Below are positions 2,404-12,529 of a stretch of DNA of 12,529 bases, one piece after another (the first letter of the stretch is position 1; every line of letters starts with the position of its first letter). The notes under the pieces are model-generated. The model was not told where the DNA came from. It worked only from the letters and a program-made list of their open reading frames with translations, and searched no databases. Origin of the DNA: a virus; the UHGV virus genome UHGV-1994978; one strand, given 5' to 3'. Position numbers and translations under genes: made by a program.

Positions 2404-2853
2404 ATGGCAAGAAAAGAAGCAATTCATAATAATCAGAAAGTAAAGGGAGCATTAAAAAATATAACATTACATGCCCTTTCCAAAGAAGCAAAAGATGTAA
2501 TGAGAAATCTAATTCAAGAAAGTGATTTTTTAGGTAAAAACAGAGTACCAGAAGAAGACGTGTATGCCATTGTTCGTAATAGTCCAGAGTTAAGCGAACA
2601 GCTAACATTTGAATATCTAAAGCTATACAGACAAACAAAAGGTATGAACTACCCGGATAGTAAATCAGCACGTGAGAAGTACAAGAGGATCGCTACGCTC
2701 ATTTCACAGGCATTCGAGCAACTACTGAACGATGGTGTACCCCTCAACATGATTGCAAAGTATAAGTCTAAGCAGTTGATGACAGACGAACAGAAAGCCG
2801 CACATCTAGAGATGTTGACCTGCTCCCCGTTGATTAGTACACCCCGATGTTAG
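2404..2853 (+). pseudogene. phage gene interrupted by IS insertion (N-terminal part; native frame ends at the IS junction 2815/2816, the last 12 codons are read from the IS inverted repeat)
   Basis: ORF with AGGGG upstream of ATG 2404; reading frame runs straight into the IS left inverted repeat. Confidence 0.5.
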
Positions 2854-2858
2854 TAATG
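2816..2858. repeat. IS left terminal inverted repeat
   Basis: TGACCTGCTCCCCGTTGATTAG...GTTAGTAA aligns with the reverse complement of the right end. Confidence 0.7.
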
Positions 2859-2886
2859 TCTTCATAAGCCACATGAGGACATCCCC

Positions 2887-3150
2887 ATGAAGAAGCGTTT
2901 TTCCGACGAACAGATCATCAGTATTCTCCGCGAAGCCGAAGCTGGGGTACCCGCCCGTGAACTCTGCCGCAAGCATGCCATTTCCGATGCCACGTTTTAC
3001 ACCTGGCGTAAGAAGTATGGCGGTATGGAGGTGCCTGAAGTTAAGCGCCTGAAGTCGCTTGAGGAAGAGAACACCAGACTCAAGAAGCTGCTTGCCGAAG
3101 CCATGCTGGATAAAGAGGCGCTTCAGGTGGCTCTTGGGCGAAAGTACTGA
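2887..3150 (+). CDS. IS3-family transposase OrfA (helix-turn-helix and leucine-zipper part)
   Basis: [46 protein letters not shown]... is the typical IS3/IS407-group OrfA pattern. Confidence 0.9.
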
Positions 3151-3173
3151 CGACAGACCAGAAGCGGGAAGCC

Positions 3174-4218
<1,045 letters not shown>

Positions 4219-4219
<1 letters not shown>

Positions 4220-4612
4220 TGAAAAATCTACACAATGAAATTATGAATATCATTCAGTACGCCATTGATAACCCGTATCAGTTTGGAGATAACGATTGCA
4301 ATATTATTGTATTACGTATTATCGATTTAATTAATGGTACTACGCACTTAGCAAATCGTGAATATACAAGCATACAGGAAGGTATAGCAGGTCTAAAGGC
4401 TGAAGGATGGAATCATACAGGGGAGATAGTTGAACAGTACTGTAACCCCGTACAGGTCGTTATAGACGGTGATATATGGCTGGATCCTGATAACCCTTTA
4501 ATTATGGCAGTGGTTGTATCAGGTCGGGTACTTGGAGTGAATGAAAGCCATGATGGGTTTGAACTTCATCCAAAACCAACGAATGGAACATTTTATAGAG
4601 TAAGGAAACACA

Positions 4613-4620
<8 letters not shown>
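4219..4620 (+). CDS. putative tail assembly protein with NlpC/P60-like domain (lambda gpK C-terminal-like)
   Basis: GDNDCNIIVLRII has the NlpC/P60-type catalytic Cys context and His residues follow (ESHDGFELHP); directly upstream of and overlapping the J-like gene; weak similarity judged by eye. Confidence 0.45.
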
Positions 4621-7820
<3,200 letters not shown>

Positions 7821-7822
<2 letters not shown>

Positions 7823-7830
7823 TAAATATC
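7821..7830 (+). promoter_or_regulatory. AATAAATATC motif, candidate late promoter element
   Basis: Exact 10-mer 37 nt upstream of ATG 7868; same 10-mer recurs upstream of two other genes. Confidence 0.35.
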
Positions 7831-7867
7831 AAGGGGATAATTTCCCCTATGACTTAAAGGATTTAAT

Positions 7868-8164
7868 ATGGCACAAGGATTACAATGCTGGAATAGTGCA
7901 GGGGTATTAGTAGTAGATCTCGGTGATTATAATATGCGGTATATGGGTACTTACTCAATTACTGCTACTACTGCATCAAGTTATACTGTTACTGTACCCG
8001 GAATGAAAACAACAGGGTGGATAGCCTATTACGCACCATCTACGGATGTTTTTAATAATTGGTCTGTTATTTGTAATAATGGTTCAATGACTATCATTTA
8101 TCTACCAACGGGATCACCGTTTGCTGGTACGTATAGTTTCAACGTATATAAATGGACGGTGTAA
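7868..8164 (+). CDS. hypothetical tail-fibre-associated protein (98 aa)
   Basis: AAGGA upstream of ATG 7868; N-terminus MAQGLQCWNSAGVLVVD shares the NSAG-L-(V/I)D motif with the next gene. Confidence 0.6.
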   Translation: MAQGLQCWNSAGVLVVDLGDYNMRYMGTYSITATTASSYTVTVPGMKTTGWIAYYAPSTDVFNNWSVICNNGSMTIIYLPTGSPFAGTYSFNVYKWTV

Positions 8165-8165
8165 T

Positions 8166-8822
8166 ATGTCAGGGTTTGAAGTTTATAATTCTGCGGGTGC
8201 TCTCACGATTGACAGTACTAACAAGTCAATTCTCACAGGTGCTGTTAAGGCAATGGGTACACTGACTGATCAGGGGTACTACACAGGCTTTACATGTGCT
8301 TTTGGTAATGGTGGTGCTCTTGGCTTCTTGCCACCTGCAACTATCGTGAACAGGAACACTACGCAGTACTGGTTTCAGATACAGAAAGATGGTGGCTGGT
8401 GTTTTCCCGGTGCTGAGTTGTTCCAGCCGGGGATAGGGCGATTCATGACGAGTACGCACACTGCAACGCCTACGTCTGGTTATCTCGATGTGTTTAATGC
8501 TTCCGGTACTTTGATATGGTCTGCTGCATCGGCGGCTACCATGCCCCGTATACAGGGTTTCTTAACCGTACCTGCGGCAACAGATTTGAGTACTGCAATC
8601 ACAGTAACAAGCCCTGTTGCTAATCCCTGGTTTTGCTGGTCACAATGTCCGGGCAACTTAAGTGATGATGGGGAAACAATCGGTTATTCGGGAATAGTTA
8701 TTCGACGTAATAGCAGTACTTCATTCAGCTTGCAGTACGTTTCAAAGAACCAGAAAACATATCGTCAGGCAATGGGTAACAATGGTTTTCAAATTGCTTT
8801 AGCTACTTTCACCGGATATTAA
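8166..8822 (+). CDS. hypothetical tail-fibre-associated protein (218 aa), paralogous N-terminus to the preceding gene; the ORF-track start at 8121 is probably too far upstream
   Basis: ATG 8166 one nt after the previous stop; MSGFEVYNSAGALTIDSTNK; Gly/Ser/Thr-rich, as often seen in fibre or receptor-binding proteins. Confidence 0.6.
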   Translation: MSGFEVYNSAGALTIDSTNKSILTGAVKAMGTLTDQGYYTGFTCAFGNGGALGFLPPATIVNRNTTQYWFQIQKDGGWCFPGAELFQPGIGRFMTSTHTATPTSGYLDVFNASGTLIWSAASAATMPRIQGFLTVPAATDLSTAITVTSPVANPWFCWSQCPGNLSDDGETIGYSGIVIRRNSSTSFSLQYVSKNQKTYRQAMGNNGFQIALATFTGY

Positions 8823-8862: not shown

Positions 8863-9129
8863 ATGGACATTGGTACAATCTTAGCTCTTATTATTTCTGG
8901 TTGTGTACTTCTGTACACTGTATTCCGCGACAATACAAAAGATACTGATGGACTACTTACACGTGTTTCAGAACTGGAAACTAAACAAGCAGTACAGGAA
9001 AGTAGTATGGTGCGTATTGAAGCTGATCAGAATAAGATGCGTGATGCTTTAACTAAACTTGAAAACCAGATTCATGATCTGGATGTGAAAATTGAAAAAA
9101 TCATTACCATTCTTGAACAGAAACAATAA
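8863..9129 (+). CDS. small membrane-anchored protein with C-terminal coiled coil (88 aa)
   Basis: N-terminal hydrophobic segment ILALIISGCVLLYTVF followed by a heptad-like helical region; function not assignable from sequence. Confidence 0.55.
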   Translation: MDIGTILALIISGCVLLYTVFRDNTKDTDGLLTRVSELETKQAVQESSMVRIEADQNKMRDALTKLENQIHDLDVKIEKIITILEQKQ

Positions 9130-9135
9130 GAAGAA

Positions 9136-9167
9136 AGGCGATAGTACATAATGCTATCGCCTTTTTG
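9136..9167. terminator. bidirectional rho-independent terminator between convergent genes
   Basis: AGGCGATAG / CTATCGCCT stem flanked by an A-tract upstream and TTTTT downstream. Confidence 0.6.
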
Positions 9168-9617
9168 TTATTTGTTGGTTAGTACGGCAATCATTGCATC
9201 AACACGATTAGGTGTTTGTTTATACCATAATGAATCTTTAGCCTGTCTGATGGCTTCCGGGTAATCTTTTGTTTTAAGGGCTACTAACATCTTTTTGAAT
9301 TTCTGTACCCCGCCTAAACCTAACTGGAACATCATTATCACAAGAAAATCTTTCCAGTCGTCAGGTAGCCAGATGTTGAGCGTTTCAACATTATGTACTG
9401 CAATTAGTATATCCTGGTCCAGTAGTCTATCTGCTTGCTCAATAGTAATACCATCTGGATACTTGTCACCAACATGTAGTAAATGACCGTAGCCAATGGT
9501 TTCAAATCCTAGTGAATCTTTGTATGTCCAAAATTTGTTATCGTGAAAGTACTTCAATTTTGTTTGATAAGCGATAGTACCTTCATATTCTTTTAATCTG
9601 TCTTTTAGTTTACTCAT
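9168..9617 (-). CDS. T4-type lysozyme (glycoside hydrolase family 24), putative endolysin
   Basis: YKDSLGFETIGYGHLL aligns with T4 lysozyme YKDTEGYYTIGIGHLL; MMFQLGLGGVQKF and WYKQTPNR match T4 MVFQMGETGVAGF and WYNQTPNR; Glu/Asp/Thr catalytic positions appear conserved. Confidence 0.85.
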   Translation of the reverse strand: MSKLKDRLKEYEGTIAYQTKLKYFHDNKFWTYKDSLGFETIGYGHLLHVGDKYPDGITIEQADRLLDQDILIAVHNVETLNIWLPDDWKDFLVIMMFQLGLGGVQKFKKMLVALKTKDYPEAIRQAKDSLWYKQTPNRVDAMIAVLTNK

Positions 9618-9657: not shown

Positions 9658-9681
9658 GTGAGAGTTAATAAAGCATGGGAG

Positions 9682-10107
9682 ATGTTCGATACTGATATGT
9701 GGGATATGTCAGAAGTAACAGATGGGAACTACGTTTCGTTTATCTACATTATTCAGTTTCCAGAGACTGGCGAGTACTATTTCGGTAAGAAGCAAATCTA
9801 TAAAAAAGTACGCGACATAAAGAATTTAAAGGCTACTTCAATTGAATCGAACTGGCCTGATTATACCGGTAGTAGTAAGTGCGTTAATGAAATGATTGAT
9901 GCCGGAATGCCATACACTAAAAAGATTTTGTACTGTGTTAAATCTGACGCAGAGGCAACGATTTTAGAAACAGCATTGATTAGCTACATTGGTTTACATC
10001 CCGACTGCTTAAATAAAGCAATTATGTGTAAAGCACGATTGCCAAAGAATCGTTTAGATTTATTTAAAGTACTGCAAGATCTAATTGATATGTTGGGTGT
10101 GAGGTAA
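9682..10107 (+). CDS. hypothetical protein, possibly a small GIY-YIG-like nuclease domain; track start 9658 (GTG) is the alternative
   Basis: GGGAG four nt before ATG 9682; SFIYIIQFPETGEYYFGKK loosely fits GIY...YIG spacing, with later Arg and Glu (ILETAL) candidates; weak assignment. Confidence 0.5.
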   Translation: MFDTDMWDMSEVTDGNYVSFIYIIQFPETGEYYFGKKQIYKKVRDIKNLKATSIESNWPDYTGSSKCVNEMIDAGMPYTKKILYCVKSDAEATILETALISYIGLHPDCLNKAIMCKARLPKNRLDLFKVLQDLIDMLGVR

Positions 10108-10672: not shown

Positions 10673-10980
10673 ATTTTGATGAACATTATGGTGAACTAAC
10701 CAGTGAGATTAAACTCGATGGTAATACACCAGAGGCTAATAGTATGCCAATTCATAAATGCTTTCTTGGTAATAAGTTCAAGAAGGTACTAAAGAGTAAA
10801 CAGATTAATATCGAACATTTTATGAATGTTTGCTATGAGAAAAAACAAGATATAACGGACGGTTCAGTACTCACATGGTCACTACAAGGTGTCCAGATGG
10901 ATGTGTATGTAATCGAACACAAAAAACTATTCGTTAAGGGAAAACACTTTTGGGTGTATTGCGTGGGGATCATTGAATGA
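10669..10980 (+). CDS. hypothetical protein (103 aa)
   Basis: ATGA start/stop overlap with the upstream gene suggests translational coupling. Confidence 0.55.
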   Translation: MNFDEHYGELTSEIKLDGNTPEANSMPIHKCFLGNKFKKVLKSKQINIEHFMNVCYEKKQDITDGSVLTWSLQGVQMDVYVIEHKKLFVKGKHFWVYCVGIIE

Positions 10981-11270
10981 TTGGTGTAATAATTGATTTA
11001 ATTAAAACTGGAATGGACTTTTTCATCAAGAAGAAAACTGTAGAACAGGAAGTTCAAAAAAATAATGCTGAAGGGCAGATAGAAACGAACAAAGAAGAGA
11101 TTGAAAAGGTGACATTCCATTGGCGTAATGCTCTAGGATGTGTGCTCACCTTAATCATTCTATATAACTGGATCATAGTACCAGTACTTGATGCTTTTGG
11201 TATTGTGGTTATCCAAGTGCCGTTAGGTCAACTACTGCAAGTACTATTGATTATGGTTGGTGGAAGCTGA
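10977..11270 (+). CDS. hypothetical membrane protein with two C-terminal transmembrane segments (97 aa)
   Basis: ATGA overlap with the upstream gene; hydrophobic stretches LGCVLTLIILYNWIIVPVL and GIVVIQVPLGQLLQVLLIMVGG; strong terminator follows. Confidence 0.55.
   Translation: MIGVIIDLIKTGMDFFIKKKTVEQEVQKNNAEGQIETNKEEIEKVTFHWRNALGCVLTLIILYNWIIVPVLDAFGIVVIQVPLGQLLQVLLIMVGGS

Positions 11271-11524: not shown

Positions 11525-12529
<1,005 letters not shown>

What the first reader, a model, noticed from the sequence alone, without database searches (positions are those of the whole stretch)
7868..8822. Two paralogous small proteins after the J-like gene, candidate receptor-binding tips
The J-like protein ends soon after its conserved C-terminal repeats, and two translationally coupled genes follow whose N-termini share M-x-x-G-x-x-x-x-NSAG-x-L-(V/T)-(V/I)-D. 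The second is Gly/Ser/Thr-rich. A duplicated, diverged pair at this position suggests host-range determinants or fibre assembly factors.
Basis: inference. Interest (0 to 1): 0.45.

Follow-up and report, generated by a model that had tools for sequence, protein, structure and literature searches.

The report
Two-protein phage receptor-binding tail tip
The two small genes after the tail-tip gene are relatives of a two-protein receptor-binding unit that other small E. coli phages are thought to use to grab the outer-membrane PQQ importer PqqU/YncD, so this is a new member of a recently described kind, sitting in a damaged prophage.

Summary
Two intact genes, ORF1 (7868-8164, 98 aa) and ORF2 (8166-8822, 218 aa), follow the J-like tail-tip gene and share an N-terminal motif.

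They are homologues of phage IsaakIselin RBP-2 (34% identity) and RBP-1 (39%). The PHROG families match (7961 and 4524), and ORF2 falls in Pfam DUF8377. A 2025 paper predicts, from modelling only, that this pair forms a heterodimer binding the outer face of the TonB-dependent transporter PqqU/YncD. Genetics show that phage needs YncD.

The order J, ~100-aa gene, ~215-aa gene recurs in all 12 loci examined. The last 56 residues of J travel with the pair. ORF1 is the fastest-evolving tail gene.

Two differences from the reference module:
- No TonB-like exclusion protein (SIP-1) follows the pair here.
- This copy of the prophage is damaged: an IS3-family element truncates the tail operon and J carries a 1-bp deletion.

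Verdict: a new member of a known kind. The receptor is inferred, not shown. Interest is modest.

The parts
4613..7822 (+). J-like central tail fibre / tail-tip gene. It is disrupted in this window by an N-run at 4702-4723 and a 1-bp deletion near 6363.
   Evidence: PHROG 31 'central tail fiber J' and Pfam Phage_Tail_Tip and fn3. tblastn with the intact 1067-aa J of L004 shows frame changes. A 1-bp deletion is seen against L018.
7652..7819 (+). Last 56 residues of J (…[33 protein letters not shown]). This is the tip segment that travels with the RBP pair and is the likely docking site.
   Evidence: This segment is 54-64% identical to HK639-type and Bas10 J proteins, whose other parts are 23-28% identical. 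Oekolampad J, which carries a DUF6453 RBP, has a different tip.
7868..8164 (+). ORF1, 98 aa, homologue of IsaakIselin RBP-2 (QXV80561). It has a conserved N-terminal beta-hairpin followed by a variable beta-sandwich.
7868..7948 (+). ORF1 N-terminal 27 residues (MAQGLQCWNSAGVLVVDLGDYNMRYMG), the conserved hairpin motif.
   Evidence: Majority-residue fraction is 0.83 here against 0.45-0.58 in the rest of the protein. The motif is found at the start of genes after J-like genes in other phage groups.
8166..8822 (+). ORF2, 218 aa, homologue of IsaakIselin RBP-1 (QXV80560), Pfam DUF8377. It is made of two hairpin-plus-sandwich units.
8475..8534 (+). Second hairpin motif inside ORF2 (residues 104-123, SGYLDVFNASGTLIWSAASA), marking the start of the second unit.
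   Evidence: Conserved block in alignment A2. The model has strands at 108-110 and 116-119. Residues 106-175 hit the ORF1-like phrog_2427. hhalign E=3e-4.
8863..9129 (+). 88-aa protein with an N-terminal membrane helix and a coiled coil. It appears co-transcribed with the pair and occupies the position that SIP-1 has in IsaakIselin, but it is unrelated to SIP-1. Its role is unknown.
   Evidence: No similarity to SIP-1. Only weak PHROG and NCBIfam hits. Conserved in L003-L005.
9132..9166 (+). Strong terminator-like hairpin (15-bp stem followed by a T run) that would end the J-ORF1-ORF2-p88 transcription unit.

Best explanation
ORF1 and ORF2 encode the two subunits of a separate receptor-binding protein that sits on the tip of the J-like central tail fibre of a siphovirus-type prophage.

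Proposed mechanism (all steps in this paragraph are inferred):
- The small subunit has one hairpin-plus-sandwich unit and the large subunit has two. Together they associate into a three-unit head.
- The conserved N-terminal beta-hairpins and the conserved core blocks hold the pair together and dock it on the last ~56 residues of the J trimer.
- The variable beta-sandwich surfaces contact the extracellular loops of an outer-membrane beta-barrel protein of the host. This commits the phage to irreversible adsorption and DNA ejection.
- By homology the most likely receptor is the host's orthologue of the TonB-dependent PQQ importer PqqU (YncD).

Shown here: homology to IsaakIselin RBP-2/RBP-1, the conserved gene order, the co-inherited J tip, the domain repeat, the fold match to a solved RBP, and the fast divergence of ORF1.

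Taken from the literature: YncD dependence of the related phages (genetic evidence) and the heterodimer bound to PqqU (AlphaFold2-multimer model only).

In this particular genome the module is probably no longer used to build virions. An IS3-family element has cut off the upstream tail genes and J is frameshifted. About 97% identical prophages elsewhere are intact.
For: Homology to the reference pair:
- ORF2 matches bas10_0025 (RBP-1): 39% identity, full length, E=7e-51.
- ORF1 matches bas10_0026 (RBP-2): 34% identity, E=2e-15.
- The PHROG families are the same, 4524 and 7961.

Receptor evidence from related phages:
- Phages carrying homologues include IsaakIselin, JohannLBurckhardt and IME347, all YncD-dependent, and Eeyore, computationally assigned to YncD.
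- PMC12124388 models RBP-1 and RBP-2 as a heterodimer on the outer face of PqqU and reports that PQQ blocks infection.

Context and evolution:
- The order J, ~100-aa gene, ~215-aa gene holds in all 12 loci examined.
- The J tip co-varies with the module.
- ORF1 and ORF2 diverge faster than J: 66% and 77% against 82% in L004, and 40% and 58% against 63-70% in L005.
- N-termini are conserved while the protein bodies vary.

Structure:
- Both models are confident and all-beta.
- The N-terminal hairpins have lower pLDDT (68-72), and residues 1-25 of the Oekolampad RBP had to be modelled for lack of map density. Both are as expected for a docking element that needs a partner.
Against: - No member of this family has been shown experimentally to bind a receptor or to be in the virion. 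The heterodimer and its complex with PqqU are models.
- Identity to the YncD-linked proteins is only 34-45%, and the variable regions are the ones expected to set specificity. The receptor here could therefore be a different outer-membrane protein.
- The SIP-1 exclusion protein that accompanies the pair in IsaakIselin and in HK639-type prophages is absent here.
- I could not model the complex because the tool predicts single chains only. I could not check that the host encodes PqqU.
- This copy sits in a truncated tail operon.
Confidence: 0.72

Rival explanations
1. The architecture and role are the same (a two-subunit RBP on the J tip), but the receptor is a different outer-membrane protein, for example another TonB-dependent transporter, rather than PqqU/YncD.
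For: Identity to the YncD-linked proteins is only 34-45%. The sandwich regions are the most variable parts. The TonB-like SIP-1 that targets PqqU from the periplasm is missing from this subgroup: window, L003, L004 and L005. Hosts differ (Scandinavium, Pluralibacter and others).
Against: ORF2 meets the family criterion used in the receptor-prediction preprint, more than 30% identity with full coverage. All experimentally typed carriers of the family use YncD. PqqU is reported to be widespread in Gram-negative bacteria.
Confidence: 0.2
2. The two proteins are tail-tip structural caps or fibre assembly/chaperone factors that do not touch the receptor. Specificity would lie in J or in the side fibre.
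For: No direct binding data exist for this family. A separate 946-aa Peptidase_S74 fibre gene lies upstream in intact relatives.
Against: There is no similarity to Tfa or gp38-type chaperones in Pfam, PHROGs or NCBIfam. The folds match distal receptor-binding domains and a solved RBP. J ends right after the conserved tip and has no extra C-terminal binding domain. The locus type correlates with terminal receptor across phages.
Confidence: 0.06
3. The genes encode superinfection-exclusion or other lysogenic-conversion ('moron') proteins expressed from the prophage.
For: Exclusion genes do sit in this locus in related phages.
Against: Neither protein has a signal peptide or lipobox, by direct reading of MAQGLQCW… and MSGFEVYN…. 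They are tightly packed behind J in the late tail operon. The known exclusion factors of this locus are unrelated small secreted proteins or lipoproteins.
Confidence: 0.02

Closest known systems
IsaakIselin (Bas10) RBP-1 / RBP-2 / SIP-1 module, the PqqU (YncD)-targeting locus of Drexlerviridae and related temperate phages such as HK639 and Eeyore
   Same: Both subunits are homologous, with the same PHROGs and full-length alignments. The small-then-large gene order, the position next to the end of gpJ, and the conserved J tip are also shared.
   Different: Identity is 34-39%. The genes lie on the same strand as J here, but are convergent with J in IsaakIselin. No SIP-1 homologue is present; an unrelated 88-aa membrane/coiled-coil gene takes its place. 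The backbone is a different temperate prophage and the host genera differ.
DUF6453 (PF20051) RBPs of LptD-targeting small siphoviruses: Oekolampad RBP (PDB 9RPT chain C) and Rtp44
   Different: The DUF6453 protein is a single 321-aa chain, not two chains. There is no significant sequence or profile similarity (hhalign E 0.006-0.03; no Pfam hit). The receptor differs (LptDE), as do the J tip and the exclusion protein, which is a lipoprotein.
T5 pb5 on the pb4 central fibre, with the Llp exclusion lipoprotein
   Same: The logic is the same: a separate, non-covalently attached RBP at the tip of the central fibre binds a TonB-dependent transporter.
Lambda gpJ C-terminal receptor-binding domain
   Same: It is the same tail-tip position and the same type of target, an outer-membrane beta-barrel.
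   Different: In lambda the binding domain is part of J. Here J ends at the conserved tip and binding is delegated to two separate proteins.

Membership tests
PqqU/YncD-type two-subunit RBP module (IsaakIselin RBP-1/RBP-2) | Large subunit homologous to RBP-1 (phrog_4524 / Pfam DUF8377), more than 30% identity over essentially full length | tested here: met
   39% identity over 218/217 aa, E=7e-51. phrog_4524 E=6e-59. PF28254 is recorded for this exact protein.
PqqU/YncD-type two-subunit RBP module (IsaakIselin RBP-1/RBP-2) | Small subunit homologous to RBP-2 (phrog_7961), encoded immediately upstream of the large one | tested here: met
   34% identity, E=2e-15. phrog_7961 E=1e-15. 1-nt spacing between the two genes.
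PqqU/YncD-type two-subunit RBP module (IsaakIselin RBP-1/RBP-2) | Location at the variable locus next to the 3' end of the gpJ homologue, with the matching J tip | tested here: met
PqqU/YncD-type two-subunit RBP module (IsaakIselin RBP-1/RBP-2) | Accompanying TonB-C-terminal-like secreted exclusion protein (SIP-1, phrog_25729) | tested here: not met
   tblastn finds SIP-1 homologues in HK639-type loci (L001, L006-L012) but none in the window, L003, L004 or L005. The gene at that position is unrelated.
PqqU/YncD-type two-subunit RBP module (IsaakIselin RBP-1/RBP-2) | The two subunits heterodimerise and bind the extracellular face of PqqU | not testable with these tools
   The structure tool predicts single chains only. 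In the literature this rests on AlphaFold2-multimer.
PqqU/YncD-type two-subunit RBP module (IsaakIselin RBP-1/RBP-2) | Infection depends on yncD/pqqU and is blocked by PQQ | not testable with these tools
   This needs an inducible intact relative and a host mutant.
DUF6453 LptD-binding RBPs (Oekolampad RBP, Rtp44) | Match to Pfam PF20051 or profile similarity to the family | tested here: not met
   No Pfam hit. hhalign E=0.006-0.03 with probability of 6% or less.
DUF6453 LptD-binding RBPs (Oekolampad RBP, Rtp44) | Shared three-dimensional fold | tested here: met
Tail fibre assembly chaperones (Tfa / gp38-like) | Sequence family match | tested here: not met
   No such hit in Pfam, PHROGs or NCBIfam.
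Cor / Llp / Rtp45-type superinfection exclusion proteins | Signal peptide or lipobox; small secreted protein | tested here: not met
   The N-termini MAQGLQCWNSAG and MSGFEVYNSAG have no hydrophobic leader or lipobox. Compare bas18_0026, MKTLIMICAVLLSGC.

The most novel reading that the evidence does not exclude
The pair may be a split version of a three-unit receptor-binding head, with one hairpin-plus-sandwich unit in ORF1 and two in ORF2. These three units would match the threefold J tip. Single-chain proteins with three such motifs would be the fused form: the 321-aa DUF6453 LptD binders and a 313-aa metagenomic protein, P0337, whose first unit is detectably ORF1-like. On this reading the 'unrelated' RBP families found downstream of gpJ in small siphoviruses share one ancestral repeat. 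New receptor specificities would then arise by diversifying or reshuffling its units.
Probability: 0.3. Interest if true: 0.55.

Novelty: new member of a known kind. Interest (0 to 1): 0.3.

Why it matters
Most databases still label these genes 'hypothetical' (PHROGs 'unknown function'; Pfam DUF8377). Linking them to the PqqU/YncD-type module gives them a testable function. It also extends that module from a few E. coli phages to a widespread family of prophages in Scandinavium, Pluralibacter, Enterobacter and related genera.

Two points could help rational swapping of receptor specificity in small siphoviruses:
- The last ~56 residues of J move together with the pair.
- The subunits are built from a repeated unit with a fold like the LptD-binding RBP.

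They also hint that separate RBP families share a common origin. None of this changes the general picture of how such phages adsorb.

Tried and rejected
- **DNA search of phage records.** Megablast of the region against phage records found nothing. Only protein-level searches found relatives.
- **Solved structures by sequence.** A profile search against PDB sequences gave only chance hits. The link to 9RPT is by fold only.
- **Sequence link to DUF6453.** I looked for one with profile-profile comparisons. E-values of 0.006-0.03 are not significant, so I do not claim homology.
- **J C-terminus resembling the RBP hairpin.** The end of J ([15 protein letters not shown]) looks by eye like the RBP hairpin motif, which suggested hairpin-to-hairpin docking. 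A motif HMM scored it no better than shuffled J sequences (best -0.6 bits against a shuffled 95th percentile of -0.2). I dropped it as evidence.
- **p88 as a diverged SIP-1.** The 88-aa downstream gene shows no similarity to SIP-1. Its family hits are weak and inconsistent.
- **Context of P0337.** The three-unit protein lies on unannotated phage-like metagenome contigs with no recognisable J gene, so it adds no positional support.
- **Long or repetitive hits in the representative search.** Proteins of 339-3056 aa (for example P0287, P0333, P0353) matched the ORF1 profile only through repeated or low-complexity stretches and were ignored.
- **E. coli complete genomes.** They hold no close copy of this module. 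The best match covers J at 76% identity.

Full report
**What is in the sequence**

The window encodes the distal part of a siphovirus-type tail module on the + strand.
- A truncated tail gene lies at 4037-4219.
- A DUF6950 gene lies at 4219-4620.
- A J-like central-fibre gene spans 4613-7822 (PHROG 31; Pfam Phage-tail_3, fn3 and Phage_Tail_Tip).
- Two small ORFs follow.

ORF1 is 7868-8164 (98 aa). ORF2 runs to 8822. The mechanical ORF list starts it at TTG 8121, but the ATG at 8166 gives MSGFEVYNSAG…, which is the N-terminus of every homologue, so ORF2 is 218 aa. The ORF1 stop and the ORF2 start are 1 nt apart. J and ORF1 are 45 nt apart.

The shared motif is real. ORF2 is moderately rich in small residues, G+S+T+A 42% against 31% in neighbouring proteins.

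**Is the similarity more than chance?**

Pairwise BLASTP is marginal (E=0.01). Family profiles are clearer:
- The ORF1 family (115 cluster representatives) matches the N-terminal half of the ORF2 family with hhalign probability 91%, E=9e-7.
- It matches the C-terminal half with E=3e-4.
- Residues 106-175 of ORF2, and 102-177 of its HK639 homologue, hit the ORF1-like phrog_2427.

ORF2 carries the motif twice, as MSGFEVYNSAGALTIDS at residues 1-17 and SGYLDVFNASGTLIWSAASA at residues 104-123.

The AlphaFold2 models are confident: ORF2 has pLDDT 88.3 and pTM 0.81, and ORF1 has pLDDT 84. They show the same pattern three times, a short beta-hairpin followed by a six- or seven-stranded sandwich. The pair is therefore best described as 1 + 2 copies of one unit.

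**What the genes are related to**

tblastn against phage records finds ORF2 homologues in 57 phages and ORF1 homologues in 25, always next to each other. They include:
- the temperate phages HK639, Eeyore, Flotzy, LMessi, CharmingMan and LLS;
- the Drexlerviridae phages IsaakIselin (Bas10), JohannLBurckhardt (Bas11), IME347, NBD2 and Henu7;
- several Klebsiella and Cronobacter phages.

Annotated records call the large-subunit homologues 'hypothetical protein' and most small-subunit homologues likewise, though a few Cronobacter records label the latter tail or tail-fibre protein.

The literature supplies function.
- IsaakIselin, JohannLBurckhardt and IME347 require the outer-membrane transporter YncD. 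The variable locus beside gpJ correlates with the terminal receptor (PMC8594841).
- A 2026 preprint confirms a YncD-linked family at this locus and assigns Eeyore to YncD computationally.
- PMC12124388 renames YncD as PqqU. It models QXV80560 (bas10_0025, 217 aa, 'RBP-1') and QXV80561 (bas10_0026, 101 aa, 'RBP-2') as a heterodimer on the extracellular face of PqqU. It proposes QXV80559 ('SIP-1'), a TonB-C-terminal-like secreted protein, as the exclusion factor, and it notes that PQQ blocks infection.

ORF2 is 39% identical to RBP-1 over its full length (E=7e-51). ORF1 is 34% identical to RBP-2 (E=2e-15). The PHROG families are the same. Pfam has since filed the ORF2 family as DUF8377 (PF28254), which is absent from the local Pfam copy but precomputed in the protein collection.

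**Context and evolution**

In all 12 loci examined, a ~100-aa gene and a ~215-aa gene sit at the end of J. These are 10 bacterial prophages plus HK639 and IsaakIselin.

The last 56 residues of J are 54-64% identical between this prophage group and the HK639 and Bas10 groups, although the rest of J is only 23-28% identical. Oekolampad, which uses a different RBP family, has a different tip. The J tip and the pair therefore behave as one exchangeable module, which points to the J tip as the docking site.

Within the closest prophages, ORF1 is the fastest-evolving tail gene: 66% identity against 82% for J in L004, and 40% against 63-70% in L005. ORF2 is somewhat faster than J.

In both proteins the N-terminal hairpin is conserved. 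ORF2 also has conserved core blocks at residues 101-130 and 154-176. The sandwich regions vary. This is the pattern expected for a conserved attachment and assembly part with variable binding surfaces.

The ORF1 N-terminal motif also turns up, at weaker E-values, at the start of genes beside host-specificity genes in Xanthomonas, Stenotrophomonas, Acinetobacter, Burkholderia and Psychrobacter phages.

**Fold comparisons**

- The Oekolampad RBP (bas18_0025, 321 aa, Pfam DUF6453) lies at the same locus. Residues 1-25 and two internal segments were missing from its cryo-EM density and had to be modelled. It shows hairpin-like motifs near residues 4, 121 and 215.
- Profile comparisons do not reach significance. 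I record a shared fold and a similar layout, not proven homology.
- A 313-aa metagenomic protein, P0337, has an ORF1-like first unit (E=3e-5 against the whole library) and two further motif copies. This shows that single-chain three-unit versions exist.
- BFVD matches are 220-290-aa uncharacterised proteins from Acinetobacter, Pseudomonas and other phages.

**Differences from the reference module**

SIP-1 homologues are present just downstream of the large subunit, on the opposite strand, in HK639-type loci. In HK639 itself this stretch is unannotated. None is found in the window or in L003-L005.

At that position the window has an 88-aa gene (8863-9129) with an N-terminal membrane helix and a coiled coil. 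A strong terminator-like hairpin follows at 9132-9166.

**State of this copy**

An IS3-family element occupies 2816-4036, with imperfect terminal inverted repeats, orfA at 2887-3150 and orfB at 3174-4007. It abuts codon ~146 of a 207-aa tail gene. The sequence to its left is unrelated to the prophage, and there is no target-site duplication, which indicates a deletion or rearrangement.

J carries a 22-N run and a 1-bp deletion relative to intact relatives.

The exact ORF2 protein occurs in many assemblies. There it sits in ~97% identical prophages that have an intact 1067-aa J and the upstream tail genes, and whose right-hand boundary lies next to mipA and gapA. The genes are thus functional in the lineage but probably idle in this genome, unless the defects are assembly artefacts.

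**Verdict**

The finding is a new member of a recently described kind, the PqqU/YncD-type two-subunit RBP. The receptor identity and the heterodimer remain inferences.

The one element that goes beyond the literature I read is the 1 + 2 repeat architecture and its fold-level link to the LptD-binding RBP. It is suggestive but unproven.

Noticed in passing
window 2816-4036: IS3-family insertion sequence. It has terminal inverted repeats (TGACCTGC[T/C]CCC…), orfA at 2887-3150 (HTH_Tnp_1) and orfB at 3174-4007 (rve), presumably joined by a frameshift. It truncates a 207-aa tail gene to its last ~60 codons (4037-4219). There is no target-site duplication and the sequence to its left is unrelated to the prophage, which suggests an IS-mediated deletion or rearrangement.
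   Followed up: partly
window 4702-4723 and ~6363: The J gene has a run of 22 N and a single-base deletion (TATAAC becomes TAT-AC) compared with intact ~97% identical prophages. Either J is a pseudogene here or these are assembly errors. The Scandinavium lactucae copy (L003) has a frame break at a different place in J.
   Followed up: partly
L001 6649-6888, minus strand (HK639 record about 23577-23816): An unannotated homologue of the IsaakIselin exclusion protein SIP-1 (about 32% identity, E=5e-11) lies between HK639_25 and HK639_26. The same gene is present in L006-L012 but absent from the window's subgroup.
   Followed up: partly
window 8863-9129 and 9132-9166: An 88-aa protein with a membrane helix and a coiled coil is co-oriented with the RBP pair and followed by a strong hairpin terminator shared with the convergent lysozyme gene (9168-9617, minus strand). 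It could be a lysis component or an alternative exclusion factor. No informative homology was found.
   Followed up: partly
window 9658-10107: A GIY-YIG SegE-like endonuclease gene diverges much more than its neighbours among related prophages (38-42% against 60-83% identity), as expected for a mobile homing-endonuclease insert.
   Followed up: no
window 7830-7849: A perfect 6-bp inverted repeat (GGGGATAATTTCCCC) sits between the J stop and the ORF1 ribosome-binding site. On the minus strand it scores as terminator-like. Its role is unknown.
   Followed up: no
L015 5001-5942 (protein P0337): A 313-aa metagenomic protein has three copies of the hairpin motif, and its first unit is ORF1-like. 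It may be a fused, single-chain counterpart of the ORF1 + ORF2 pair. Its neighbours are unannotated.
   Followed up: partly
phage records (e.g. Xanthomonas phiL7 19710-19790, Psychrobacter Psymv2 33645-33695, Acinetobacter Presley 30704-30772): The ORF1 N-terminal motif recurs at weak E-values at gene starts in distant phage groups, including some that are not siphoviruses. In Psymv2 the motif overlaps the annotated host-specificity gene. This hints at a widely used attachment element.
   Followed up: no
window 10977-11270 and 11819-12529: The homologue of the 97-aa membrane protein in an intact relative carries a weak GTA_holin_3TM hit. A 236-aa ORF runs off the window's end and was not characterised.
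   Followed up: no
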